DNA from: Escherichia phage vB_EcoM-569R9
Strand: one strand, 5' to 3'
Length of the DNA stretch: 32,497 nt
Sequence record: ON470601
Made by a program: the position numbers and the translations under genes. This document shows, piece by piece, positions 3,291-32,085 of the stretch; position 1 is the first letter of the stretch; each line of letters starts with the position of its first letter. The notes below the pieces were generated by a model that was not told the origin of the DNA, did not search any database, and was given only the letters and a program-made list of their open reading frames with translations.

Positions 3291-3461
3291 ATGAATGAGC
3301 CGCGTTGTATTGCTCAGTTATTGCGTAACGAAAGCCCCAGGGCGATTGACTTCACCATCACCCACGGGAAGGGACGCAAGGGAATCATTATCCGCACCAA
3401 AAAACAGAGTCCGTTAAAGAAGGCTCTGACCTTTCTGAAAAGCCGGAGAGTCTGGAAATGA
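3291..3461 (+). CDS. Small hypothetical early protein (P2 orf78 position)
   Basis: ORF beginning MNEPRCIAQLL between cox and B; overlaps the B start. Confidence 0.45.
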   Translation: MNEPRCIAQLLRNESPRAIDFTITHGKGRKGIIIRTKKQSPLKKALTFLKSRRVWK

Positions 3462-9604: not shown

Positions 9605-10639
9605 TCAGCCGTTGTCAGTGTCCAGTGAGTAGTTTTTAAAGCGGATGACCTCCTGACCGAGCCAGCCGTTTATCTCGCGGATCCTGTCCTGTAGCGGGAT
9701 AAGCTCATTGCGGACAAAGACCTTTGCCACTTTCTCAATATCACCCAGCGACCCGACGTTCTCCGGCTTGCCGCCCATCAACTGAAAGGGGATGCGGTGC
9801 GCGTCCAGCAGGTCAGCGGCGCTGGCTTTTTTGATATTAAAAAAATCGTCCTTCGTTGCCACTTCACTGAGCGGGATAATTTTAATGCCGTCGGCTTTCC
9901 CCTGCGGAGCATAGAGAAACAGATTTTTAAAGTTGTTGCGGCCTTTCGACTTGACCATGTTTTCGCGAAGCATTTCGATATCGTTGCGATCCTGCACGGC
10001 ATCGGTGACGTACATGATATATCCGGCATGAGCGCCATTTTCGTAATACTTGCGGCGGAACAGCGTGGCCGACTCATTCAGCCAGGCAGAATTAAGGGCG
10101 CTGAGATATTCCGGCAGGCCGTACAGCTCCTGATTAATATCCGGCTCCAGCAGGTGAAACACGGAACCGGGCGCGAAGGCTGTCGGCTCGTTGAAGGACG
10201 GCACCCACCAGTAAACATCCTCTTCCACACCACGGCGGGTATATTTTGCCGGTGAGGTTTCCAGTCTGATGACCTTACCGGTGGTGCTGTAACGCTTTTC
10301 CAGAAACGCATTACCGAACACCAGAAAATCCAGCACAAAGCGGCTGAAATCCTGCTGGGAAAGCCACGGGTGCGGGATAAACGTTGAAGCCAGAATATTA
10401 CGTTTGACGTAAATCGGTGAGCTGTGATGCACGGCAGCACGCAGACTTTTTGCCAGACCGGTAAAGCTGACCGGTGGCTCATACCATCTGCCGTTACTGA
10501 TGCATTCGACGTAATCCAGAATGTCACGGCGGTCGAGTACCGGCACTGGCTCACCAAAGGTGAATGCNNNNNNNNNNNNNNNCGCTGGCGGTCATTTTTT
10601 TTGCCGCAGGTTGCGGTGTTTTCCCTTTTTTCTTGCTCA
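9605..10639 (-). CDS. Q: Portal protein Q (interrupted by a 14-nt N-run at 10568-10581)
   Basis: 313-aa ORF plus N-terminal exon MSKKKGKTPQPAAKKMTAS upstream of the gap; P2 Q-like; position next to terminase. Confidence 0.88.
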
Positions 10640-13498: not shown

Positions 13499-14592
13499 AT
13501 GCGCCAGGAAACCCGCTTTAAATTTAATGCCTACCTGTCCCGTGTTGCCGAACTGAACGGCATCGACGCCGGTGATGNNNNNNNNNNNNNNNNNNNNNNN
13601 CGAAAAAATTCACCGTTGAACCGTCGGTCACTCAGACCCTGATGAACACCATGCAGGAGTCCTCTGATTTTCTGACCAGCATCAACATTGTGCCGGTCAG
13701 CGAAATGAAAGGGGAAAAAATTGGTATTGGTGTCACCGGCTCCATCGCCAGCACCACCGACACCGCCGGTGGCACCGAGCGTCAGCCGAAGGACTTCTCG
13801 AAGCTGGCGTCAAACAAGTACGAATGCGACCAGATTAACTTCGATTTTTATATCCGCTACAAAACGCTGGACCTGTGGGCGCGTTATCAGGATTTCCAGC
13901 TCCGTATCCGTAACGCCATTATCAAACGCCAGTCCCTTGATTTCATCATGGCCGGTTTTAACGGCGTGAAGCGTGCCGAAACCTCTGACCGCAGCAGTAA
14001 TCCGATGCTGCAGGATGTGGCGGTCGGCTGGCTGCAGAAATACCGCAATGAAGCACCGGCGCGCGTGATGAGCAAGGTCACTGACGAGGAAGGGCACACC
14101 ACCTCTGAGGTCATCCGCGTGGGTAAGGGCGGTGATTATGCCAGCCTCGATGCACTGGTGATGGATGCGACCAACAACCTGATTGAGCCGTGGTATCAGG
14201 AAGACCCTGACCTTGTGGTGATTGTGGGGCGTCAGCTACTGGCGGACAAGTATTTCCCCATCGTCAACAGGGAGCAGGATAACAGCGAAATGCTGGCTGC
14301 TGACGTGATCATCAGCCAGAAACGCATCGGTAACCTGCCAGCGGTACGCGTCCCGTACTTCCCGGCGGATGCGATGCTCATCACGAAGCTGGAAAACCTG
14401 TCCATCTACTACATGGATGACAGCCATCGCCGCGTGATTGTGGAAAACCCGAAACTCGACCGCGTGGAGAACTACGAGTCAATGAACATTGATTACGTGG
14501 TGGAAGACTACGCCGCCGGTTGTCTGGTGGAAAAAATCAAGGTCGGTGATTTCTCCACACCGGCTAAGGCGACCGCAGAGCCGGGAGCGTAA
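13499..14592 (+). CDS. N: Major capsid protein N (interrupted by a 23-nt N-run at 13578-13600)
   Basis: Starts MRQETRFKFNAYLSRVAELNGIDAGD before the gap, continues ...FTVEPSVTQTLMNTMQESSDF...; P2 N-like. Confidence 0.9.
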
Positions 14593-14595
14593 CCG

Positions 14596-15337
14596 ATGAC
14601 GAGTCCCGCACAGCGCCACATGATGCGGGTCTCGGCAGCGATGACCGCGCAGCGGGAAGCCGCCCCGCTGCGACATGCAACTGTCTATGAGCAGATGCTG
14701 GTCAAGCTGGCCGCAGACCAGCGCACACTGAAAGCGATTTATTCAAAAGAGCTTAAGGCCGCGAAAAAGCGCGAACTGCTGCCGTTCTGGTTGCCGTGGG
14801 TGAACGGTGTGCTGGAGCAGGGCAAAGGTGCACAGGATGACATTCTGATGACGGTCATGCTGTGGCGTCTGGATACCGGCGATATTGCCGGTGCGCTGGA
14901 GATTGCCCGTTATGCCCTGAAGTACGGTCTGACCATGCCGGGTAAACACCGCCGCACCCCGCCGTACATGTTCACCGAGGAGGTCGCACTCGCGGCCATG
15001 CGCGCTCACGCTGCCGGTGAATCTGTGGATATCCGCCTGCTGACGGAGACCCTTGAACNNNNNNNNNNNTGACATGCCTGATGAAGTGCGCGCAAAGCTG
15101 CACAAAATCACCGGTCTGTTTCTGCGTGACGCTGGTGATGCCGCCGGTGCGCTGGCTCACCTGCAACGTGCGACACAGCTCGACTGTCAGGCAGGCGTCA
15201 AAAAAGAGATTGAACGACTGGAGCGGGAGCTGAAACCGAAGCCGGAGCCGCAGCCAAAAGCGGTCACCCGCGCCCCGCGTAAGACCCGGAGCGTGACACC
15301 GGCAAAACGTGGACGCCCGAAAAAGAAAGCCAGTTAA
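14596..15337 (+). CDS. M: Terminase small/endonuclease subunit M (interrupted by a 10-nt N-run at 15060-15069)
   Basis: Two ORF segments either side of the gap; basic C-terminal tail (RKTRSVTPAKRGRPKKKAS); canonical position. Confidence 0.85.
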
Positions 15338-15436
15338 CAACCAAATGCGCCCCGCGCCAGGGCGGCACGCCGGTCAGTGAGGGTGAATCACCTGACACTG
15401 CACCGGCGTCCACCGCCCGACTTTTCAGAGGTAGTC

Positions 15437-15946
15437 ATGATGACGCTGATTATTCCGCGAAAGGAGGCTCCCGTGTCCGGTGAGGGGACGGTGGTCATCC
15501 CGCAACCGGCAGGCGACGAGCCGGTGATTAAAAACACGTTCTTTTTTCCCGATATCGACCCGAAGCGCGTCCGGGAACGTATGCGCCTTGAGCAGACCGT
15601 CGCCCCCGCCCGTCTGCGTGAGGCCATCAAGTCAGGCATGGCGGAGGCGAATGCGGAGCTGTACGAATACCGCGAACAGAAAATTGCCGCCGGTTTTACG
15701 TGTCTGGCGGACGTTCCGGCGGACGACATCGACGGTGAAAGCATCAAAGTTTTTTACTACGAGCGCGCCGTGTGTGCGATGGCGACCGCATCGCTTTATG
15801 AGCGTTATCGCGGCGTGGATGCCAGTGCGAAAGGCGACAAGAAGGCTGACAGCATTGACAGCACCATTGATGAGCTGTGGCGGGATATGCGCTGGGCGGT
15901 GGCGCGCATCCAGGGCAAGCCGCGCTGCATCGTGAGTCAAATCTGA
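15437..15946 (+). CDS. L: Capsid completion protein L
   Basis: Starts MMTLIIPRKEAPVSGEG; P2 L-like; position. Confidence 0.85.
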   Translation: MMTLIIPRKEAPVSGEGTVVIPQPAGDEPVIKNTFFFPDIDPKRVRERMRLEQTVAPARLREAIKSGMAEANAELYEYREQKIAAGFTCLADVPADDIDGESIKVFYYERAVCAMATASLYERYRGVDASAKGDKKADSIDSTIDELWRDMRWAVARIQGKPRCIVSQI

Positions 15947-16149
15947 TGAAGACCTTTGCGCTACAGGGCGACACGCTCGACGCCATTTGTGTCCGCTATT
16001 ACGGGCGCACTGAGGGCGTGGTCGAGGCCGTGCTCGCCGCAAATCCGGGACTGGCTGAACTGGGGGCGGTGCTGCCACACGGCACCGCCGTCGAACTGCC
16101 CGACGTTCAGACCGCGCCCGTGGCTGAAACTGTCAATCTGTGGGAGTAA
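15946..16149 (+). CDS. X: Tail protein X (LysM-like)
   Basis: 67-aa ORF MKTFALQGDTLDAICVRYYGRTEGVVEAVLAANPGLAELGAVLPHGTAVELPDV; P2 X-like. Confidence 0.85.
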   Translation: MKTFALQGDTLDAICVRYYGRTEGVVEAVLAANPGLAELGAVLPHGTAVELPDVQTAPVAETVNLWE

Positions 16150-16152
16150 CGC

Positions 16153-16434
16153 ATGACAGCAGAAGAAAAAAGCGTCCTGTCGCTTTTCATGATTGGGGTG
16201 CTGATTGTTGTCGGCAAGGTGCTTGCCGGTGGTGAACCTATCACCCCGCGTCTGTTTATCGGGCGCATGTTGCTCGGTGGTTTTGTCTCGATGGTTGCCG
16301 GTGTTGTTCTGGTGCAGTTTCCTGACCTGTCACTGCCTGCGGTGTGCGGCATCGGCTCCATGCTGGGTATCGCCGGTTATCAGGTGATTGAGATTGCCAT
16401 TCAGCGCCGTTTTAAGGGCAGGGGGAAACCGTAA
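16153..16434 (+). CDS. Y: Holin Y
   Basis: 93-aa ORF with hydrophobic transmembrane segments and charged C-terminus; first gene of lysis cassette. Confidence 0.85.
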   Translation: MTAEEKSVLSLFMIGVLIVVGKVLAGGEPITPRLFIGRMLLGGFVSMVAGVVLVQFPDLSLPAVCGIGSMLGIAGYQVIEIAIQRRFKGRGKP

Positions 16435-16949
16435 TGCCGGTAATTAACACGCATCAGAATATCGCCGCCTTTCTCGACATGCTGGCCGTGTCCGAAGGGA
16501 CGGCGAATCATCCGCTGACGAAAAACCGGGGCTATGACGTGATAGTCACCGGACTGGACGGAAAGCCGGAAATTTTCACCGACTACAGTGACCACCCGTT
16601 CGCGCATGGCCGACCGGCGAAGGTGTTTAACCGTCGCGGTGAAAAATCCACGGCCTCCGGTCGCTATCAGCAGCTTTACCTGTTCTGGCCGCACTACCGC
16701 AAACAGCTTGCCCTGCCGGATTTCAGTCCGTTGTCACAGGACAGGCTCGCCATTCAGTTGATCCGCGAACGCGGTGCACTGGATNNNNNNNNNNNNNNNN
16801 NNNNNATCCGGGCGGGACGCATTGAGCGCGCCATTTCACGCTGTCGCAATATCTGGGCGTCCCTGCCGGGTGCCGGTTACGGTCAGCGTGAGCATTCACT
16901 GGAAAAACTGGTCACCGTCTGGCGTACCGCCGGCGGCGTACCGGCTTAA
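16434..16949 (+). CDS. K: Endolysin K (lysozyme; interrupted by a 21-nt N-run at 16785-16805)
   Basis: P2 K-like ORF following the holin. Confidence 0.85.
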   Translation: MPVINTHQNIAAFLDMLAVSEGTANHPLTKNRGYDVIVTGLDGKPEIFTDYSDHPFAHGRPAKVFNRRGEKSTASGRYQQLYLFWPHYRKQLALPDFSPLSQDRLAIQLIRERGALDXXXXXXXIRAGRIERAISRCRNIWASLPGAGYGQREHSLEKLVTVWRTAGGVPA

Positions 16950-16963
16950 ACGGAGTAAACACC

Positions 16964-17389
16964 ATGAAGAAATTATCCCTTTCACTGATGCTGAACGTGT
17001 CGCTGGCGCTGATGCTGGCACTGTCCCTGATTTACCCGCAGAGCGTGGCCGTCAGTTTTGTCGCCACCTGGGCGATTCTGGCGACGGTTATCTGTGTGGT
17101 TGCCGGTGGTGTCGGCGTGTATGCCACTGAGTATGTGCTGGAACGCTACGGGCGGGAGCTGCCGCCGGAATCGCTGGCCGTGAAGATTGTCGCGTCGCTG
17201 TTTTTGCAGCCGGTGCCGTGGCGCAGACGGGCGGCGGCTCTGGTGGTGATGGTGGCGACGTTTATCTCGCTGGTCGCTGCCGGGTGGATTTTTACCGCGC
17301 TGATTTACCTCGTGGCGTCGGTGTTCTTCCGGTTGATACGCACGGCCTGTCGTCAGCGTTTTGAGGGGCGGGAACCATGTCAAAGCTGA
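16964..17389 (+). CDS. lysA: Lysis timing protein LysA (membrane protein)
   Basis: 141-aa ORF with multiple transmembrane segments; position after K. Confidence 0.8.
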   Translation: MKKLSLSLMLNVSLALMLALSLIYPQSVAVSFVATWAILATVICVVAGGVGVYATEYVLERYGRELPPESLAVKIVASLFLQPVPWRRRAAALVVMVATFISLVAAGWIFTALIYLVASVFFRLIRTACRQRFEGREPCQS

Positions 17390-21314: not shown

Positions 21315-24050
21315 ATGAGCACGAAATTTAAAACCGTTATCACTACTGCCGGAGCCGCGAAGCTGGCAGCCGCCACTGTCCCCGGCGGGAAAAAAGTAAA
21401 CCTGTCTGCAATGGCCGTGGGTGACGGTAATGGCAAATTGCCGGTGCCGGATGCCGGTCAGACGAAGCTGGTGCATGAGGTCTGGCGTCATGCCCTGAAT
21501 AAAGTCAGCGTGGATAATAAGAATAAAAACTATATCGTGGCTGAACTGGTTGTTCCGCCAGAAGTGGGCGGCTTCTGGATGCGTGAGCTTGGTCTGTATG
21601 ACGATGCCGGAACACTGATTGCGGTATCCAACATGGCAGAAAGCTATAAGCCAGAACTGGCTGAAGGCTCCGGACGTGCGCAGACCTGCCGCATGGTTAT
21701 TATTCTCAGCAACGTGGCGTCCGTTGAGCTGAGTATTGATGCCAGCACAGTGATGGCGACGCAGGATTACGTCGATGACAAAATCGCAGAGCATGAGCAG
21801 TCCCGCCGCCATCCTGACGCCACGCTGACAGAAAAAGGTTTTACTCAGTTAAGCAGTGCAACAAACAGCACCAGTGAGTCATTGGCAGCAACGCCAAAAG
21901 CGGTCAAGGCAGCAAATGACAACGCAAATTCACGTCTGGCGAAAAATCAGAATGGTGCAGATATCCAGGATAAATCAGCTTTTCTGGACAATGTTGGCGT
22001 TACCAGCCTGACGTTTATGAAAAACAATGGCGAAATGCCGGTTGATGCTGATCTGAATACGTTTGGTCCTGTTAAGGCTTATTCAGGTATCTGGTCTAAA
22101 GCTACATCCACTAACGCGACGGCTGCTAAAAATTTCCCTGAAGACGGTGCAGTCGGTGTACTGGAGGTATTCAATGGCGGTAATTTTTCAGGAATGCAGC
22201 GTTATACCACCAGAACAGGCAATGTTTATATGCGCAACCTTTCTGGCACATGGAATGGTTCAGACGGTCCGTGGAGTTACTGGCGTCAGGTTCAGTCTGC
22301 AACACGCCCCCTGAGCACAACCATTGACCTGAACACGCTCGGAGGCGCAGAGCATCTTGGTTTATGGCGAAACAGTAGTGGCTCAATCGCTTCATTTGAC
22401 CGCAACTATCCGGAAGAAGGAAGTTATGGTCAGGGACTCCTTGAAGTTCTTGAAGGTGGTGGTTACTCGCGAACGCAGCGTTACACGACCCGCCGTGGAA
22501 ATGTTTATGTTCGCTGTCTTTCGGCCTCGTGGGATGCAGAGAACCCACAGTGGGAGCCGTGGTCAAGAGTGGGCTACCAGTCAGAAAGCCGTTATTACGA
22601 CGGTGATTTGAATGATGTAACCTCACCAGGTATTTACAGCGTTACAGGTAAAGCGACCAATGGTCCAATACTGGACGGAAACGGCGTGACAGTCCTCGGT
22701 ATTCTGGAAGTGTTGAGGCGCTTTGATGGTGTTAACGTATGGCAGCGTTATACAACTGCCGGAACAGGTACAACCCTTAAAGGTCGCACGTTTGAGCGCG
22801 TTTTTACCGGCAGCTCATGGAGCGAATGGCGGGAAGTTTACACATCTTATTCACTTCCCCTGAATCTGGGTATCGGTGGCGCAGTAGCAAAACTCACCAG
22901 CCTGGACTGGCAGACATACGATTTTGTGCCGGGCAGTCTGATAACCGTTCGGCTGGATAACATGACCAATATTCCCGACGGTATGGACTGGGGCGTCATT
23001 GATGGCAACCTGATAAACATCTCAGTCGGTCCGAGTGATGATTCTGGTTCGGGACGCTCAATGCATGTATGGCGCAGCACTGTAAGTAAAGCCAACTACC
23101 GCTTTTTTATGGTGCGTATTTCAGGAAATCCGGGAAGCCGCACGATTACAGCAAGACGAGTACCAATCATTGACGAAGCCCAGACATGGGGCGCGAAACA
23201 GACATTCAGTGCTGGCCTTTCTGGTGAACTGTCCGGCAATGCGGCGACAGCAACAAAGCTGAAAACAGCCCGTAAAATTAATAACGTTTCGTTTGATGGA
23301 ACATCAGATATTAACCTGACGCCGAAAAATATTGGTGCATTTGCTTCAGGAAAAACAGGAGACACCGTTGCGAATGATAAAGCCGTTGGATGGAACTGGA
23401 GTAGCGGAGCCTATAACGCAACTATTGGTGGGGCATCAACGTTAATTCTTCATTTTAATATCGGTGAAGGAAGTTGCCCCGCCGCCCAGTTCCGCGTTAA
23501 TTATAAGAACGGCGGTATTTTTTATCGTTCTGCTCGTGACGGTTACGGATTCGAGGCTGACTGGTCTGAGTTTTATACCACAACGCGAAAACCTACAGCG
23601 GGAGATGTCGGTGCACTGCCGTTATCTGGTGGTCAATTGAATGGTGCTCTGGGTATAGGAACATCCAGTGCTCTTGGCGGTAATTCGATTGTTTTGGGTG
23701 ATAATGACACGGGCTTTAAACAAAATGGTGATGGTAATCTGGATGTTTATGCTAATAGCGTCCATGTTATGCGCTTTGTCTCGGGAAGTATTCAAAGTAA
23801 TAAAACCATAAATATTACGGGGCGTGTTAATCCCTCGGATTACGGTAACTTTGATTCCCGCTATGTGAGAGATGTCAGACTTGGCACACGTGTTGTTCAG
23901 ACCATGCAAAAAGGCGTGATGTATGAAAAATCAGGCCATGTAATCACGGGGCTTGGTATTGTCGGTGAAGTCGATGGTGATGATCCAGCAGTATTCAGAC
24001 CAATACAAAAATACATCAATGGCACATGGTATAACGTTGCGCAGGTGTAA
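21315..24050 (+). CDS. H: Tail fibre protein H, mosaic: P2 H-like N-terminal virion-attachment region fused to a long divergent distal region with a triplicated ~50-aa repeat
   Basis: 911-aa ORF (P2 H is markedly shorter); conserved N-terminus MSTKFKTVITTAGAAKLAAATV...; three repeat units around nt 22120-22290, 22400-22570 and 22660-22840. Confidence 0.85.
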   Translation: MSTKFKTVITTAGAAKLAAATVPGGKKVNLSAMAVGDGNGKLPVPDAGQTKLVHEVWRHALNKVSVDNKNKNYIVAELVVPPEVGGFWMRELGLYDDAGTLIAVSNMAESYKPELAEGSGRAQTCRMVIILSNVASVELSIDASTVMATQDYVDDKIAEHEQSRRHPDATLTEKGFTQLSSATNSTSESLAATPKAVKAANDNANSRLAKNQNGADIQDKSAFLDNVGVTSLTFMKNNGEMPVDADLNTFGPVKAYSGIWSKATSTNATAAKNFPEDGAVGVLEVFNGGNFSGMQRYTTRTGNVYMRNLSGTWNGSDGPWSYWRQVQSATRPLSTTIDLNTLGGAEHLGLWRNSSGSIASFDRNYPEEGSYGQGLLEVLEGGGYSRTQRYTTRRGNVYVRCLSASWDAENPQWEPWSRVGYQSESRYYDGDLNDVTSPGIYSVTGKATNGPILDGNGVTVLGILEVLRRFDGVNVWQRYTTAGTGTTLKGRTFERVFTGSSWSEWREVYTSYSLPLNLGIGGAVAKLTSLDWQTYDFVPGSLITVRLDNMTNIPDGMDWGVIDGNLINISVGPSDDSGSGRSMHVWRSTVSKANYRFFMVRISGNPGSRTITARRVPIIDEAQTWGAKQTFSAGLSGELSGNAATATKLKTARKINNVSFDGTSDINLTPKNIGAFASGKTGDTVANDKAVGWNWSSGAYNATIGGASTLILHFNIGEGSCPAAQFRVNYKNGGIFYRSARDGYGFEADWSEFYTTTRKPTAGDVGALPLSGGQLNGALGIGTSSALGGNSIVLGDNDTGFKQNGDGNLDVYANSVHVMRFVSGSIQSNKTINITGRVNPSDYGNFDSRYVRDVRLGTRVVQTMQKGVMYEKSGHVITGLGIVGEVDGDDPAVFRPIQKYINGTWYNVAQV

Positions 24051-24053
24051 ATT

Positions 24054-24581
24054 ATGCAGCATTTAAAAAACATTAAGTCAGGTAATCCAAAAACAAAAGA
24101 ACAATATCAGCTAACAAAGAATTTTGATGTTATCTGGTTATGGTCCGAAGACGGAAAAAACTGGTATGAGGAAGTAAGTAATTTTCAGGAAGACACGATA
24201 AAGATTGTTTACGATGAAAATAATATTATTGTCGGCATCACCAGAGATGCTTCAACGCTCAACCCTGAAGGTTTCAGCGTTGTCGAGGTTCCTGATATTA
24301 CCGCCAACCGACGTGCTGATGACTCAGGGAAATGGATGTTTAAGGATGGTGCCGTGATTAAGCGGATTTATACGGCAGACGAACAGCAACAACAGGCAGA
24401 ATCACAAAAGGCCGCGTTACTTTCCGAAGCGGAAAGCGTTATTCAGCCACTGGAGCGCGCTGTCAGGCTGAACATGGCAACAGATGAGGAGCGTAGCCGA
24501 CTGGAAGCATGGGAACGCTACAGTGTTCTGGTCAGCCGTGTGGATCCTGCAAATCCTGAATGGCCGGAAATGCCGCAATAA
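24054..24581 (+). CDS. G: Tail fibre assembly chaperone G (Tfa family)
   Basis: 175-aa ORF immediately after H; C-terminal EWPEMP-type ending typical of tail fibre assembly proteins. Confidence 0.8.
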
Positions 24582-24642
24582 GTGATATGATCTCTTGTGT
24601 TAGTTAACATAGCTATAGTACAGAGTAAGGCCTAATCTGACA

Positions 24643-24666
24643 GTCCGCTCTGTGCTAGGAGCGGAC
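24643..24666 (+). other. Perfect 8-bp stem / 8-nt loop hairpin (GTCCGCTC-tgtgctag-GAGCGGAC) nested inside a larger inverted repeat (TTAACATAGC at 24604-24613 / GCTATGTTAA at 24681-24690)
   Basis: Read directly from sequence; no T-tract follows, so not a canonical intrinsic terminator. Confidence 0.5.
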
Positions 24667-24970
24667 ATTATCAACATCATGCTATGTTAATGTATAAAGT
24701 GAAGATAAATTGATATAATAAGGCCACCATGAATATTTCAGAACCTTGTCAAAAGGTTTGCACATACTCTAGTCTTGCAATGTGTAGTTGATAGTTCCAC
24801 TGAGGAGGTTCTTCGACATTCTTTATAAAAATGTACATTTTCATCAATAATAAGAGGTAAAAGGGCTTTAATAGTTTTTTGTGGATGTTATGTCCACTCA
24901 TAAATTTTGAGATAAGTATTGAGTTGAGATAAAGTTAAACTCGTTAAATTCACCTTTAAAAGGATAAAGC

Positions 24971-25522
24971 ATGGACTGGAAAGATCTTGCATCAACCGCT
25001 GTGTATACAGGTATGACTGATGAAAATGAAAACATATGGGGACGTGTTGATGGGGTTGACGTTGCCTTCATAGGTGCCTTTCTTACTGCGCACTTGAGCC
25101 TTGAAAAGTATATTACTGATTATCTTGGATTAAGATATCCTTCGTTAGCTTGGGGTGATGCAAAACTCACATTTTCACAAAAAATAGCTTTAATACAACA
25201 TGAGCCTGCAAAACCCCCTTATGATGAAATATATTTAAGAATAAAAGACTTTAACAGCATAAGAAATAAAATNNNNNNNNNNNNNNNNNNNNNNNNNNNN
25301 NNNNNNNTGAATTATCAGATTACGGATAAAGAAAAAAGTAAGTTTGTGGACTTCTACATGAAGATTACTAAAGCCAGTAAAACTAAACCAAATATTGATA
25401 TTGATAACATGGCGGATTTGTTGGATTTTTTCGTATCGATGACAAAATCCTATTTTGCTAGTGCTATTTCTTATTATCACTATAATAAAAAGGTTGCAGG
25501 TAAAAGTAATAAAATTGATTAA
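24971..25522 (+). CDS. Orphan ~180-aa cargo protein in the P2 Z/fun hotspot (interrupted by a 34-nt N-run at 25274-25307); function unknown, candidate exclusion/defence gene
   Basis: ORF with RBS AAAGGA before ATG; AT-rich; between G and FI where P2 carries Z/fun. Confidence 0.5.
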   Translation: MDWKDLASTAVYTGMTDENENIWGRVDGVDVAFIGAFLTAHLSLEKYITDYLGLRYPSLAWGDAKLTFSQKIALIQHEPAKPPYDEIYLRIKDFNSIRNKXXXXXXXXXXXXXNYQITDKEKSKFVDFYMKITKASKTKPNIDIDNMADLLDFFVSMTKSYFASAISYYHYNKKVAGKSNKID

Positions 25523-25697
25523 TAAAACTGGACTTAGGGATAATTAATATATAGACGTTCTATCATTTTTAGAGTGTGCGGCAGCTCCATACATTCATGC
25601 GGATGTCAGCACCTCGCTCAAAGCAGACAGTCAGATTTGATAGCGTTTGGACTATGTAAATAGTCAGTTGGAAAATGAGTGAGTACAAATCAGGACA

Positions 25698-25724
25698 GGC
25701 GGGCGAATTGCCCGCCTTTTCTTT
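25698..25724 (+). terminator. Rho-independent terminator downstream of the Z/fun-position cargo gene
   Basis: Hairpin GGCGGGC-gaatt-GCCCGCC followed by TTTTCTTT. Confidence 0.7.
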
Positions 25725-25820
25725 ATCTGTTGTTTCATCCACTGACCAGCCAGGTCAAATAGCGCCTCATACTCTGCACAACAGAAAATAATTGCACCCA
25801 TTAACCACGGAGTTAAACGG

Positions 25821-27011
25821 ATGAGTGACTATCATCACGGCGTGCAGGTGCTGGAGATTAACGAGGGCACCCGCGTCATTTCCACTGTATCCACGGCCAT
25901 TGTCGGCATGGTCTGCACGGCCAGCGATGCGGATGCGGAAACCTTCCCCCTCAATAAACCTGTGCTGATTACCAATGTGCAGAGCGCAATTGCAAAGGCC
26001 GGTAAAAAAGGCACGCTGGCGGCATCGTTGCAGGCCATCGCCGACCAGTCAAAACCGGTCACCGTTGTCGTGCGTGTGGAAGACGGCACCGGCGACGACG
26101 AGGAAACGAAACTTGCGCAAACCGTTTCCAATATCATCGGCACCACCGACGAAAACGGTCAGTACACCGGACTGAAAGCCCTGCTGGCGGCGGAGTCGGT
26201 AACCGGTGTTAAACCGCGCATTCTCGGTGTGCCGGGACTGGACACCAAAGAGGTTGCCGTCGCACTGGCATCAGTCTGTCAGAAGCTGCGCGCTTTCGGG
26301 TATATCAGCGCATGGGGCTGTAAAACCATTTCCGAGGTGAAAGCCTACCGCCAGAATTTCAGCCAGCGTGAGCTGATGGTCATCTGGCCGGATTTCCTCG
26401 CATGGGATACGGTCACCAGTACTACCGCCACCGCGTATGCCACCGCCCGTGCGCTGGGTCTGCGTGCCAGAATTGACCAGGAGCAGGGCTGGCATAAAAC
26501 GCTGTCCAATGTCGGGGTGAACGGTGTTACCGGCATCAGCGCCTCTGTATTCTGGGATTTGCAGGAGTCCGGCACCGATGCTGACCTGCTTAACGAGTCA
26601 GGCGTCACTACGCTGATTCGCCGCGACGGTTTCCGCTTCTGGGGTAACCGTACCTGCTCTGATGACCCGCTGTTCCTCTTTGAAAACTATACCCGCACCG
26701 CGCAGGTGCTGGCCGACACGATGGCTGAGGCGCACATGTGGGCGGTGGACAAGCCCATCACCGCAACGCTGATTCGCGACATCGTTGACGGCATCAATGC
26801 CAAATTCCGTGAGCTGAAAACAAACGGCTATATCGTGGATGCGACCTGCTGGTTCAGCGAAGAATCCAACGATGCGGAAACCCTCAAGGCCGGAAAACTG
26901 TATATCGACTACGACTATACACCGGTACCTCCTCTTGAAAACCTGACCCTGCGCCAGCGTATTACCGATAAATACCTGGCAAATCTGGTCACCTCGGTTA
27001 ACAGCAATTAA
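25821..27011 (+). CDS. FI: Tail sheath protein FI
   Basis: 396-aa ORF; P2 FI-like; followed by tail tube gene. Confidence 0.9.
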   Translation: MSDYHHGVQVLEINEGTRVISTVSTAIVGMVCTASDADAETFPLNKPVLITNVQSAIAKAGKKGTLAASLQAIADQSKPVTVVVRVEDGTGDDEETKLAQTVSNIIGTTDENGQYTGLKALLAAESVTGVKPRILGVPGLDTKEVAVALASVCQKLRAFGYISAWGCKTISEVKAYRQNFSQRELMVIWPDFLAWDTVTSTTATAYATARALGLRARIDQEQGWHKTLSNVGVNGVTGISASVFWDLQESGTDADLLNESGVTTLIRRDGFRFWGNRTCSDDPLFLFENYTRTAQVLADTMAEAHMWAVDKPITATLIRDIVDGINAKFRELKTNGYIVDATCWFSEESNDAETLKAGKLYIDYDYTPVPPLENLTLRQRITDKYLANLVTSVNSN

Positions 27012-30960: not shown

Positions 30961-32085
30961 TGCTGGATGCGCTGACATTTGATGCAGGCAGTACGCTGAC
31001 GCCGGATTACATGCTGATGCTCGACAGCAGGGATATTACCGGCAATATCAGCGACCGTCTGATGAGTATGACCCTGACGGATAACCGGGGCTTTGAGGCT
31101 GACCAGCTTGATATTGAACTGAACGATGCCGACGGGCAGGTCGGGCTGCCGGTTCGTGGCGCTGTCCTGACGGTTTATATCGGCTGGAAAGGTTTTGCCC
31201 TGGTATGCAAAGGGAAATTTACCATTGATGAGGTTGAACACCGGGGAGCGCCGGATGTGGTCACCATCCGCGCCCGGAGTGCGGATTTTCGCGGGACGCT
31301 CAATTCCCGCCGTGAAGGCTCCTGGCATGACACCACGCTTGGTGNNNNNNNNNNCCTCCCGTAACAGGCTGGAAGCCAGTGTCGCTCCGTCACTGGCAGG
31401 AATTAAAATCCCGCACATCGACCAGTCGCAGGAGTCTGATGCGAAATTTCTGACCCGTCTTGCAGAACGCAACGGCGGTGAGGTGTCGGTAAAAATGGGA
31501 AAACTGCTGTTTCTCAAAGCGGGGCAGGGGGNNNNNNNNNNCCGCAGCGACGGCGACCGTCATCATTTTGCGATTGCTGACCGTGGAGCCTACACAGGCG
31601 TAACGGCAAAGTGGTTACACACCAAAGACCCGAAGCCGCAAAAGCAGAAGGTAAAACTGAAACGCAAAAAGAAAGAGAAACACCTGCGCGCACTGGAGCA
31701 CCCGAAAGCGAAACCGGTCACGCAGAAGAAAGCGCCAAAAGTACCGGAAGCGCGCGAAGGTGAATACATGGCCGGTGAGGCTGACAATGTTTTTGCCCTG
31801 ACCACGGTATATGCCACGAAAGCGCAGGCCATGCGCGCCGCTCAGGCGAAGTGGGATAAACTGCAACGGGGCGTTGCGGAGTTCTCCATCAGCCTGGCTA
31901 CCGGTCGGGCAGATATTTACACGGAAACACCGGTCAAAGTGTCAGGCTTTAAGCGCGTCATAGACGAGCAGGACTGGACAATCACTAAGGTGACACATTT
32001 TCTGAATAATAGCGGCTTCACGACGTCCTTGGAGCTTGAGGTCAGGCTTTCTGATGTGGAGTACGAAACAGAAGATGATGAGTGA
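30960..32085 (+). CDS. D: Tail protein D (late control gene D family; interrupted by two 10-nt N-runs at 31345-31354 and 31532-31541)
   Basis: Three ORF segments spanning the gaps; canonical position before ogr. Confidence 0.85.

What the first reader, a model, noticed from the sequence alone, without database searches (positions are those of the whole stretch)
24604..24690. Nested inverted repeats in the non-coding leader of the Z/fun-position island
A perfect 8-bp stem with 8-nt loop (GTCCGCTC...GAGCGGAC, 24643-24666) sits inside a second inverted repeat (TTAACATAGC at 24604-24613 and GCTATGTTAA at 24681-24690). Together they could fold into a roughly 87-nt two-tier stem-loop. No T-tract follows, so this is not a simple terminator for G. 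It could be a structured small RNA, an RNA antitoxin-like element, a protein-binding palindrome, or a recombination site marking the cargo boundary.
Basis: seen in the sequence. Interest (0 to 1): 0.55.

Follow-up and report, generated by a model that had tools for sequence, protein, structure and literature searches.

The report
Inverted-repeat border of a prophage gene cassette
The small hairpin is the inner end of one of two inverted repeats that bracket the swappable "cargo" gene between the tail-fibre and tail-sheath genes of a P2-like prophage; such repeats were reported around P2's fun gene in 2004, and here they turn out to mark cargo slots in many phages, islands and chromosomes.

Summary
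The two repeats have different standing, however.

**Inner palindrome.** The 8-8-8 palindrome (24643-24666) is the cargo-proximal end of a conserved left arm (24582-24669). That arm is present in P2-like phages with at least 48 unrelated cargos. An inverted copy of its ~36-nt core lies at the other cargo border (25603-25637, inside right arm 25597-25693). Relatives with an empty site lack both arms. Phage P2 has the same pair around fun(Z), matching the inverted repeats attributed to Nilsson et al. 2004.

**Outer repeat.** The 10-bp repeat is specific to this cargo lineage. Its right arm lies past the conserved border, and its chance probability is about 0.09. The 87-nt two-tier fold is not a conserved unit.

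**RNA versus DNA.** I found no evidence for a structured RNA: no Rfam hit, no covariation in the hairpin, and no consensus fold over 115 distinct arms.

**Best reading.** This is a DNA-level cassette border. Conservation drops at the palindrome's spacer, and one near-identical cargo sits between diverged arms with the switch inside the palindrome. Left and right cores are heterotypic, and cargo orientation is fixed. The recombination mechanism and enzyme are inferred, not shown.

The parts
24054..24581 (+). Gene G (tail fibre assembly). Its stop codon is the left edge of the insertion site.
   Evidence: ORF list. Annotated as tail fiber assembly protein in the identical E. coli locus L001.
24582..24633 (+). 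Outer part of the left arm (L-type). It is absent from empty sites.
   Evidence: Mean conservation is 0.91 over 48 cargo classes at this site. Absent in empty-site relatives L043, L046, L053, L072, L074 and L012.
24634..24669 (+). Core of the left inverted repeat. It consists of AATCTGAC (24634-24641), A, the 5' half GTCCGCTC (24643-24650), the spacer TGTGCTAG (24651-24658), the 3' half GAGCGGAC (24659-24666) and ATT (24667-24669).
   Evidence: the repeat finder I1. nhmmer places the left arm at 24579-24678, E = 2e-25. Conservation by segment: core 0.99, spacer 0.73, 3' half 0.89, RTT 0.71, then background.
24617..24625 (+). AGTACAGAG, complementary to CTCTGTGCT (24648-24656). This alternative pairing excludes the inner hairpin. 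In most relatives the pair is GGCACAGAG/CTCTGTGCC.
   Evidence: Cells paired: 72% against 65% in shuffles. Covariation score: 0.24 against 0.14, reached by 0 of 500 shuffles. Much of this reflects the L-type versus R-type clade difference, so the support is weak.
24670..24692 (+). Cargo-proximal 'extension' remnant.
   Evidence: It lies beyond the conserved border. The 16-mer ACATCATGCTATGTTA is identical in a Serratia arm (L261). A related extension ending in GGGAGCAGGTCA occurs in 20 of 222 unique arms.
24711..24719 (+). TGATATAAT, a possible extended -10 promoter element for the cargo gene.
   Evidence: Read from the sequence. The promoter scan lists an overlapping weak site at 24710-24737. 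Function is not tested.
24971..25522 (+). Cargo ORF of unknown function. The true protein has 175 aa (WP_001554309.1). In the window, a 35-N mask at 25273-25307 replaces 11 real bases.
   Evidence: It matches phrog_5483 (unknown function). There are no Pfam, NCBIfam or PADLOC hits.
25597..25693 (-). Right arm (R-type), an inverted copy. Its core lies at 25603-25637, with GTCAGATT at 25630-25637. Here the palindrome is weakened.
   Evidence: the repeat finder I1: 35 nt, 80% complementary to 24634-24668. nhmmer places it at 25692-25597, E = 4.5e-13. Absent from empty sites.
25697..25724 (+). Intrinsic terminator (AGGCGGGCgaaTTGCCCGCCT plus a T-run). This is the ancestral terminator of the V-W-J-I-H-G operon. 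In empty-site phages it directly follows the G stop codon.
   Evidence: Terminator scan. Empty-site comparison.
25821..27011 (+). Gene FI (tail sheath), the right-hand anchor of the site.
   Evidence: ORF list and annotation of L001.

Best explanation
The inner palindrome is the cargo-proximal end of the left member of a pair of inverted repeats. These repeats bracket a replaceable gene cassette inserted between gene G and its terminator in a P2-like prophage.

**Shown.**
- The block 24582 to about 25694 is an insertion.
- Both ends carry the same ~36-nt core: AATCTGAC-N-8 nt-spacer-8 nt-RTT, with the palindromes facing the cargo.
- The arms stay while the cargo changes.
- The same arm family marks other variable sites of P2-like phages, and also other prophages, islands and chromosomal sites.

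**Inferred.** The cores act on double-stranded DNA as the places where cassettes are exchanged between two such units. An L core recombines with an L core and an R core with an R core. The crossover falls in or next to the palindrome's spacer, so the 3' half-site travels with the cargo. Because the L and R cores differ in their spacers, orientation is kept and the cargo is neither inverted nor lost. This resembles engineered heterospecific cassette exchange.

Whether a dedicated site-specific recombinase does this, or short-homology recombination, is not known. No enzyme was identified. The outer 10-bp repeat is a feature of this one cargo lineage and is probably incidental.
For: **Insertion and empty sites.** In six relatives the G stop codon is directly followed by the terminator that lies at 25697 in the window. 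Neither arm is present in them.

**Conserved arms, variable cargo.** Wphi, P2_2H1 and pro147 share only the flanks. There are 48 cargo classes at this site. Conservation is 0.91 (outer), 0.99 (core), 0.73 (spacer), 0.89 (3' half), 0.71 (RTT), and then background at 0.38-0.45.

**Inverted pair.** The window holds exactly two arm copies, one + and one -. Of 169 viral loci with arm hits, 127 show a single convergent pair. A divergent pair is never seen.

**Phage P2.** The same pair lies at 15272-15367 (+) and 17519-17423 (-) around fun(Z). [quoted passage not shown]

**Crossover inside the palindrome.** L143 (G/FI site) and L112 (next to a P4-type integrase of another prophage) carry the same 945-nt cargo at 99.4% identity. 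Their outer arms are only about 40% identical position by position. The last mismatch lies in the 5' half (GTCC versus GTCT). An unusual 3' half, GAGCAGCC, is shared.

**Polarity.** 118 of 152 pairs combine an L core (GCTCTGTGC) with an R core (GCTTTGAGC); 2 are L/L and none is R/R. No cargo is found inverted among 85 canonically oriented units.

**Breadth.**
- Arms lie after Q, between S and V, after U and after A in other P2-like phages. PMC3091744 names the TO region, the Z region and orf30 as the known variable loci.
- Full-length arms occur in Erwinia, Yersinia, Morganella, Pectobacterium, Xenorhabdus, Serratia, Pantoea, Enterobacter, Citrobacter and Pseudomonas lundensis, among others.
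- Several sit in non-phage contexts: acrB/rsmJ, carbamate kinase/xdhC, rcnA/hcp, and an ArdC island.

**Cargo.** There are 112 distinct cargos and 108 protein clusters. Many are defence-type; others are transport or redox genes. Only one transposase was seen.

**DNA rather than RNA.** The hairpin is 78% paired but shows no covariation (339 of 500 shuffles equal it). RNAalifold predicts no structure. There is no G-U versus A-C strand bias and no Rfam hit.
Against: - No recombinase or binding protein is identified, and nothing was tested experimentally.
- Only one clear case of the same cargo between diverged arms was found in about 220 unique arms. The crossover position therefore rests on that case plus the conservation profile.
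- The 40-nt conserved cores could serve simply as patches for ordinary homologous recombination.
- In the commonest non-Z/fun arm type the 5' half (GGCAGCTC) mismatches the 3' half at two of eight positions. In this window the right-arm palindrome is weak. A strict palindrome is therefore not required.
- The primary paper (Nilsson 2004) could not be read. That its repeats are these exact sequences is inferred from a review sentence and from the P2 scan.
Confidence: 0.6

Rival explanations
1. The arms are the terminal inverted repeats of a non-autonomous transposon (a mobile insertion cassette). The whole unit, arms plus cargo, is moved by a transposase supplied in trans. The palindrome is part of the transposase binding site.
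For: - The whole unit is absent from empty sites.
- Units occur at many unrelated sites in phages, islands and chromosomes.
- Both ends are about 100 nt long, with related outer termini (TGTAT(T/C)AGCTC-like) and repeated CTGACA boxes.
- L and R ends differ, as in many transposons.
Against: - No target-site duplication could be recognised at the G/FI or S/V junctions.
- No recurrent transposase appears among 108 cargo protein clusters.
- The best-conserved part is the inner, cargo-facing core, not the outermost tip.
- Arms of one site stay similar while the cargo changes, which whole-unit transposition alone does not explain.
- A profile of the left outer arm alone does not detect the right outer arm.

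This rival is not exclusive of the main explanation. It may describe how units first reach a site.
Confidence: 0.2
2. The region acts as RNA. It could be a structured 3' UTR of the late V-to-G transcript or a 5' leader of the cargo mRNA, acting as a stabilising hairpin, a processing site, an attenuator built from two exclusive stems, or a small RNA or antitoxin.
For: - The window sequence folds much better than shuffles (z about -4 on both strands).
- Because the G terminator lies downstream of the insert, late transcripts should run through the arm (inference).
- Two mutually exclusive stems exist: 24617-24625 with 24648-24656, against the inner hairpin. The first shows more pairing and covariation than shuffles.
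Against: - No Rfam match.
- No covariation in the hairpin.
- No consensus structure over 115 distinct arms.
- No strand bias of G-U over A-C mismatches.
- The same core sits inverted at the other border, so it would be antisense in the same transcript.
- It is conserved irrespective of cargo identity and cargo strand; for example, fun(Z) and the pro147 cargo are on the opposite strand.
- The covariation of the alternative stem is largely one L-type versus R-type difference inherited by many sequences.
Confidence: 0.1
3. The arms are passive relics of a first ancestral insertion. They are kept only because cargo is swapped by ordinary homologous recombination in the flanking G and FI genes. On this view the palindrome has no function.
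For: P2-like coliphages are very similar to one another and recombine. PMC13586616 discusses homologous recombination between flanking homologous genes as one route of exchange.
Against: - Flank recombination cannot bring in new cargo from non-P2 sources.
- The core is 0.91-0.99 conserved even among arms whose outer parts are only 0.64 conserved, and across genera as distant as Pseudomonas.
- The border with cargo is sharp, at the same 3-nt position, in dozens of independent cargo classes.
Confidence: 0.08
4. The full 87-nt two-tier stem-loop (outer 10-bp stem plus inner hairpin) is the functional unit.
For: Both stems are perfect in the window, and the minimum-free-energy fold contains both. 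The window's left arm differs from the consensus CTTACATATC at three positions, and all three changes make it complementary to GCTATGTTAA.
Against: - The right arm lies outside the conserved element.
- Other cargo classes lack the pairing.
- The chance probability is about 0.09.
- The window's outer left arm is generally diverged: about 12 of 52 positions differ from the consensus by my count, so three changes in a 10-mer is not an excess.
- All fetched carriers are identical here, so there is no covariation evidence.
Confidence: 0.04

Closest known systems
Inverted repeats flanking fun(Z) in phage P2 and in bacterial genomes (Nilsson, Karlsson and Haggard-Ljungquist 2004, as summarised in PMC8987985)
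   Same: The position is the same, between G and FI. The orientation is the same inverted pair. The sequence family is the same: the arm profile hits P2 at 15272-15367 and 17519-17423 around fun(Z). The proposed role is also the same, namely exchange of the flanked gene by site-specific recombination.
   Different: The cargo differs: a 175-aa protein of unknown function instead of Fun. The window's left palindrome is perfect, whereas P2's is degraded (GTCCACTC/AAGCGGAC). I could not read the original paper. How much of what follows it already reports is therefore unknown: the anatomy (core, spacer, L and R types), the other sites and the breadth.
pdif modules of Acinetobacter plasmids (gene modules flanked by inversely oriented XerC/XerD sites; from my own knowledge of Blackwell and Hall 2017)
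   Same: Discrete, swappable gene modules are bracketed by two recombination-site-like palindromes in inverted orientation. No recombinase gene lies inside the module.
   Different: No dif-like sequence is present. The best matches to the dif, psi and cer arms in 24561-25720 are at chance level. The core has an 8-8-8 layout with its own consensus, not the 11-6-11 layout of dif.
Integron gene cassettes and attC sites
   Same: Promoter-poor cassettes of very diverse content are bounded by an imperfect palindrome. The conserved sequence ends at a (G/A)TT next to the cargo.
   Different: Here two sites per cassette lie in inverted orientation, not one attC per cassette in direct orientation. There is no R''/R' pairing beyond AAT/RTT, and six unpaired bases sit on one side only. 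No single-strand signature was found. There is no IntI, attI or array.
Engineered recombinase-mediated cassette exchange with heterospecific sites (lox or FRT variants; from my own knowledge)
   Same: Two sites flank the cassette. They share half-sites but differ in the spacer (L: CTGTGCC; R: TTGAGCG). Orientation is preserved, and neither inversions nor L/R hybrids are seen.
   Different: This is a natural element. The enzyme is unknown, and exchange has not been demonstrated.
Mobile insertion cassettes and MITE-like elements (transposase-less units with terminal inverted repeats)
   Same: There is no transposase inside. The inverted ends are about 100 nt long. Units occur at many genomic sites and are absent from empty sites.
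   Different: No target duplication was found. The most conserved part faces the cargo. The element is single-copy per prophage and not dispersed: median one place per E. coli genome.

Membership tests
P2 fun(Z)-type cassette-flanking inverted repeats | Lies between tail fibre assembly gene G and tail sheath gene FI, bracketing the non-essential cargo | tested here: met
   G is at 24054-24581, the arms at 24582-24669 and 25597-25693, and FI at 25821.
P2 fun(Z)-type cassette-flanking inverted repeats | Two copies in inverted orientation | tested here: met
   The 35-nt core is 80% complementary between the two arms. The profile hits once on + and once on -.
P2 fun(Z)-type cassette-flanking inverted repeats | Sequence homology to the repeats around fun in phage P2 itself | tested here: met
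   The same profile hits NC_001895 at 15272-15367 (E = 1.4e-24) and at 17519-17423 (E = 7.7e-12), flanking fun(Z) at 15675-17261. That these are the repeats described in 2004 is inferred from the review sentence.
P2 fun(Z)-type cassette-flanking inverted repeats | The same repeats flank genes in bacterial genomes outside P2-like phages | tested here: met
   Arm pairs occur in chromosomal and island contexts (L315, L261, L227, L222, L229). This is not shown for this window's own cargo, which was found only at the G/FI site.
P2 fun(Z)-type cassette-flanking inverted repeats | The repeats mediate site-specific recombination | not testable with these tools
   There is only indirect support: the L143/L112 junction inside the palindrome, the conservation drop at the spacer, and the fixed L/R polarity.
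Intrinsic (rho-independent) terminator | G+C-rich stem-loop followed by a T-run | tested here: not met
   The stem is followed by ATTATCAACATCA. The scan finds terminators only at 25697-25724.
Any described RNA family (Rfam 15) | Covariance-model match | tested here: not met
   No hit overlaps 24582-24700 even at E up to 10.
Conserved structured RNA (undescribed) | Base pairs kept through compensatory change; consensus fold | tested here: not met
   Hairpin covariation is 0.134 against 0.135 in shuffles. RNAalifold predicts 0 pairs. The alternative stem gives a weak positive signal.
Integron attC | R''/L''...L'/R' boxes (RYYYAAC...GTTRRRY), one site per cassette in direct orientation | tested here: not met
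   Only GCCTAAT...RTT resembles the boxes. The sites come as inverted pairs in 152 of 152 adjacent pairs.
Integron attC | Integron integrase and attI nearby | not tested
   No search for IntI was made. The unit sits between phage tail genes.
Xer (dif, cer, psi, pdif) sites | 11-6(8)-11 site with XerC and XerD arms | tested here: not met
   The best arm scores are 13-15 of 22. The fraction of shuffles scoring at least as high is 0.95, 0.70 and 0.07.
MITE or non-autonomous TIR transposon | Terminal inverted repeats | tested here: met
   Arms of about 100 nt are detected by one profile on both ends. However, a left-outer-only profile does not find the right outer arm.
MITE or non-autonomous TIR transposon | Target-site duplication | tested here: inconclusive
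   Empty sites (TAA-A(C/T)AC-AGGCGGGC) compared with the filled site (TAA-G|TTGTAT...ACAAATCAGG|ACAGGCGGGC) give no clean duplication. The S/V junction is likewise unclear.
MITE or non-autonomous TIR transposon | Cognate transposase known, or autonomous copies exist | tested here: not met
   One IS110-family hit among 108 cargo protein clusters, and nothing recurrent.
Dispersed intergenic repeat (ERIC or REP type) | Many copies per genome | tested here: not met
   Found in 1777 of 5426 E. coli genomes, with a median of 1 and a maximum of 4 places per genome.

The most novel reading that the evidence does not exclude
The ~36-nt cores may be the sites of an unrecognised natural cassette-exchange system of Gammaproteobacteria. 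In this reading, heterotypic L and R palindromic sites, in inverted orientation, let a recombinase supplied in trans swap defence and other accessory genes between units. That recombinase would be encoded by the host or by a mobile element, and it is still unidentified. The units involved would include P2-like phages (all three classical variable loci), other prophages, integrative islands and chromosomal slots. The orientation of the cargo would be preserved. This would supply the exchange mechanism that the recent literature on defence hotspots calls unknown (PMC13586616).
Probability: 0.3. Interest if true: 0.85.

Novelty: already known. Interest (0 to 1): 0.45.

Why it matters
P2-like prophages are a main reservoir of anti-phage defence genes. 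Those genes turn over quickly at a few fixed slots. The 2026 survey of these hotspots states that the route of exchange with other elements is unclear and that transposable elements are nearly absent.

The repeats examined here are a concrete, sequence-defined handle on that process. They delimit the slot to the nucleotide. They recur at the other variable loci of P2-like phages. They also occur in other prophages, islands and chromosomes, with more than 100 different cargos.

The arm profile could be used to find cargo slots, and so candidate defence genes, without relying on gene annotation. The defined core makes the exchange mechanism directly testable.

For this window alone the result is modest. 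The hairpin is one more copy of a border element already reported around P2's fun gene. It is not a new RNA.

Tried and rejected
- **Rfam scan** of 24000-26000 at E up to 10: nothing over the element.
- **Terminator reading:** no T-run.
- **Dispersed-repeat (ERIC-like) idea.** It was prompted by short shared words (GAGCTTACAT, CTGGTGTGAGC), recalled from memory. I rejected it because the arm has a median of one place per E. coli genome.
- **Xer/dif idea.** It was prompted by TATGTTAA in both outer-repeat arms. I rejected it because the dif, psi and cer arm scores are at chance.
- **Integron attC:** the layout and orientation do not fit.
- **Tn3-family inverted repeat, Mu end and Tn7 end.** These resemblances were recalled from memory only. 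They rest on too few shared bases and were not pursued.
- **Strand-specific wobble test** for a single-stranded structure: no bias.
- **Search for the same cargo between different arm types:** only one case, L143/L112.
- **Search for inverted cargos:** none.
- **Search for a cargo-less pair of arms.** The shortest spacing is 91 nt, in four loci, three of them L049, L098 and L114. That case is a nested, degenerate arrangement rather than a clean empty holder.
- **Literature.** Nilsson 2004 and Odegrip 2006 are not held. Full-text search for 12-14-nt strings of the core found no paper.
- **Plasmid collection:** only 34 weak or partial matches, with none covering 80% of the arm.
- **Covariation in the outer repeat:** impossible to test, since all fetched carriers are identical there.
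Full report
**What the window is.** The window is a P2-like (Peduovirus) prophage of E. coli. H (21315-24050), G (24054-24581) and FI (25821-27011) are in the usual order. A 1.24-kb interval lies between G and FI. It holds one ORF (24971-25522). Identical DNA occurs in 11 complete E. coli genomes, and 49 genomes cover at least 80% of the interval. All are annotated tail fiber assembly / hypothetical / tail sheath.

**The observation.**
- The inner stem is 24643-24650 paired with 24659-24666, with an 8-nt loop.
- The outer 10-bp repeat is 24604-24613 paired with 24681-24690.
- No T-run follows.
- The stretch folds far better than shuffles on both strands (z = -3.97 and -3.7).
- No Rfam family matches.

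**The hairpin has a partner at the other border.** The repeat finder shows that 24634-24668 is an 80% inverted copy of 25603-25637, 934 nt away. Phages Wphi, P2_2H1 and pro147 carry unrelated genes in this interval. They share with the window only two stretches. One runs from the G stop codon to 3 nt past the hairpin (...GAGCGGAC-ATT). The other is a right-hand block that starts at about 25600.

**Empty sites show that the whole block is an insertion.** I collected 80 loci anchored on FI. In six of them the G stop codon is followed directly by the terminator GGCGGGC-nnnn-GCCCGCC-TTTTCTTT, then the F promoter region and FI. Neither conserved flank is present. In the window that terminator is at 25697-25724. 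So 24582 to about 25694, meaning left arm, cargo and right arm, is inserted between G and its terminator. A third state of the site also exists: a DNA invertase gene lies directly upstream of FI, without arms.

**Anatomy and conservation.** I took one representative per cargo class, giving 48 classes at this site. Left-arm conservation by segment is as follows:

| Segment | Conservation |
|---|---|
| Outer 52 nt | 0.91 |
| Core, positions 0-21 (AATCTGACAGTCCGCTCTGTGC) | 0.99 |
| Spacer | 0.73 |
| 3' half-site | 0.89 |
| Final RTT | 0.71 |
| Next 12 nt | 0.45 |
| Beyond | 0.38 |

In window coordinates the conserved element ends at 24669.

A profile built from the arms finds exactly two copies in the window. 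They are 24579-24678 (+, E = 2e-25) and 25692-25597 (-, E = 4.5e-13). A profile of the left outer part alone does not find the right arm. The robust inverted repeat is therefore the ~36-nt core. The outer parts form distinct left (L) and right (R) types.

**The link to the literature.** In phage P2 the same profile hits 15272-15367 (+) and 17519-17423 (-), on either side of fun(Z). The record NC_001895 does not annotate them. [quoted passage not shown] The 2004 paper itself is not in the library. The window's hairpin is thus part of a border element already described around fun. I therefore class it as already known.

Neither Rousset et al. 2022 nor the 2026 NAR survey of these hotspots mentions repeats or hairpins. 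The latter calls the route of exchange with other elements unresolved.

**Breadth.**
- A pattern scan of viral contigs, followed by the profile, gave 169 loci with arms. Of these, 127 show a single convergent pair. A divergent pair was never seen.
- Arms with a diverged but homologous outer part lie after the portal gene Q, between S and V, after U and after A in other P2-like phages. These include the TO, Z and orf30 variable regions known from the literature (PMC3091744).
- A scan of species-representative genomes, filtered by the profile, found full-length arms in Erwinia, Yersinia, Morganella, Pectobacterium, Xenorhabdus, Serratia, Pantoea, Kluyvera, Mixta, Enterobacter, Citrobacter, Raoultella, Ewingella, Pseudomonas lundensis and Ignatzschineria. 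Weaker hits came from Alteromonas. The raw pattern is expected to hit by chance a few hundred times, so only profile-confirmed loci count.
- Most of these loci have no P2 gene within 8 kb.
- Pfam confirms non-phage settings: acrB/rsmJ/histidine kinase (L315), carbamate kinase/xdhC (L261), rcnA/hcp (L227), an ArdC/DUF1281 island (L222), and P4-type integrases abutting the R arm (L177, L229).
- Between arm pairs I counted 112 distinct cargos and 108 protein clusters. These include OLD/AriA/PtuA/GajA-type ATPases, DarT, AbiGi, GmrSD and STAND NTPases. They also include ArsB, CitMHS, MFS, LysR, FMN reductase and HxlR. Only one transposase was seen.
- The element is not a dispersed repeat: 1777 of 5426 E. 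coli genomes have it, with a median of one place per genome.

**RNA or DNA?** I aligned 115 distinct arms (A1).
- The inner hairpin is paired in 78% of cells, but 339 of 500 shuffles do as well. The covariation score equals the shuffle mean.
- RNAalifold predicts no consensus pair.
- G-U mismatches do not outnumber A-C mismatches in a consistent way.
- An alternative pairing exists: GGCACAGAG with CTCTGTGCC (window 24617-24625 with 24648-24656). It excludes the hairpin and does exceed the shuffles (72% against 65% paired; covariation 0.24 against 0.14; 0 of 500). This largely reflects one difference between L-type and R-type arms, inherited by many sequences.

What is conserved is the primary sequence of both half-sites. 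That fits a site read on double-stranded DNA. It also fits half-sites that are re-assorted by crossing over between them.

**Where exchange happens (inferred).**
- L143 (G/FI site) and L112 (beside the integrase of an unrelated prophage) hold the same 945-nt cargo at 99.4% identity. Their outer arms are only about 40% identical position by position. The last left-hand mismatch is in the 5' half-site (GTCC versus GTCT). Both share the unusual 3' half GAGCAGCC. The right border behaves in the mirror-image way.
- The drop of conservation at the spacer agrees with this.
- Of 152 arm pairs, 118 combine an L core (GCTCTGTGC) with an R core (GCTTTGAGC). Two are L/L and none is R/R. Among 85 canonically oriented units no cargo is found inverted.

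This is the logic of heterospecific cassette exchange. L recombines with L and R with R, so orientation is kept and the cargo is neither flipped nor lost. The same pattern could arise from short-homology recombination in the 40-nt cores. I found no match to dif, psi or cer, no attC layout, and no candidate enzyme.

**The outer repeat.**
- Its left arm sits on a degenerate CTGACA-type box of the conserved arm. The consensus there is CTTACATATC.
- Its right arm sits in a cargo-proximal 'extension'. The 16-mer ACATCATGCTATGTTA recurs identically in a Serratia arm. A fuller form of the extension, ending in GGGAGCAGGTCA, is seen in 20 of 222 unique arms.
- The three positions at which the window's left arm departs from the consensus all increase complementarity. 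However, that arm is diverged throughout: about 12 of 52 positions differ, by my count.
- A perfect 10-mer repeat arises in about 9% of shuffles of the insert.
- The four carriers fetched are identical over the first ~270 nt, and all 50 match at 98.7% or better.

I treat the outer repeat as lineage-specific and probably incidental.

**Cargo.** The ORF encodes a 175-aa protein (WP_001554309.1). It matches phrog_5483, of unknown function, and nothing in Pfam, NCBIfam or PADLOC. A possible extended -10 element (TGATATAAT) lies at 24711-24719.

**Verdict.** The inner hairpin is the palindromic core of a known type of cassette border. The outer repeat and the two-tier RNA fold are not supported. 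The mechanism, exchange at the cores, is inferred at a confidence of about 0.6.

Noticed in passing
window 25273-25307 (also 10568-10582, 13578-13600, 15059-15069, 16785-16805, 31345-31354, 31532-31541): These are runs of N. The run inside the cargo ORF is 35 N long but replaces only 11 real bases (CAGTCATCAAT in L001). The window ORF therefore reads 183 aa instead of the true 175 aa.
   Followed up: yes
window 25697-25724: This is a strong intrinsic terminator. In relatives with an empty site it directly follows the G stop codon. Here the insertion has displaced it by 1.1 kb, so late transcripts from the V operon should read through the left arm and the cargo gene.
   Followed up: partly
L007, L019, L021, L024, L028-L030 and others, about 330 nt upstream of FI: In many close relatives the G-FI interval holds a DNA invertase gene (tail-fibre inversion type, recognised from the translated C-terminus) and no arms. 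This is a third state of the same site.
   Followed up: no
L049 1313-1561 (the same arrangement in L098 and L114): A left arm is followed after only 91 nt by a partial arm in the opposite orientation. Then come cargo and the regular right arm. The 91 nt contain the 'extension' module in reverse orientation. This looks like a nested or tandem arrangement of units.
   Followed up: partly
Arms of L034, L065, L016, L125, L130, L184, L261, L282, L307 and others; window 24670-24692 is a partial copy: A ~47-nt 'extension' follows the core at a fixed distance: RTTGCTAACATC...TGTTAAT...GGGAGCAGGTCA, 63 nt from AATCTGAC. It occurs in about 9% of arms, of both L and R type, and in several genera. Its role is unknown.
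   Followed up: partly
L125 about 3370-3420 (S/V site of another P2-like phage): At the S-V site the arm next to S begins with a terminator-like hairpin, ACTGGATCAGC...GCTGATCCAGTTTTT. It overlaps the arm's outer terminus.
   Followed up: no
One of the 108 cargo protein clusters (alignment A2): A single IS110-family transposase (PF01548) lies inside one arm-flanked cargo. I did not check which unit it is in, or whether the IS sits in or next to a core.
   Followed up: no
window 24700-24970: About 250 nt of AT-rich non-coding leader lie between the putative cargo promoter and the cargo start codon. It has several short repeats (for example TTGAGATAA twice, at 24907 and 24924). It is unexplained.
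   Followed up: no
L177 12621-13880 and L229 4619-5914: In two unrelated elements the R arm abuts the 3' end of a P4-type tyrosine integrase gene (Arm-DNA-bind_3 plus Phage_integrase). This could be coincidence, since cargo slots are often next to int. It could also be a lead to the enzyme.
   Followed up: no
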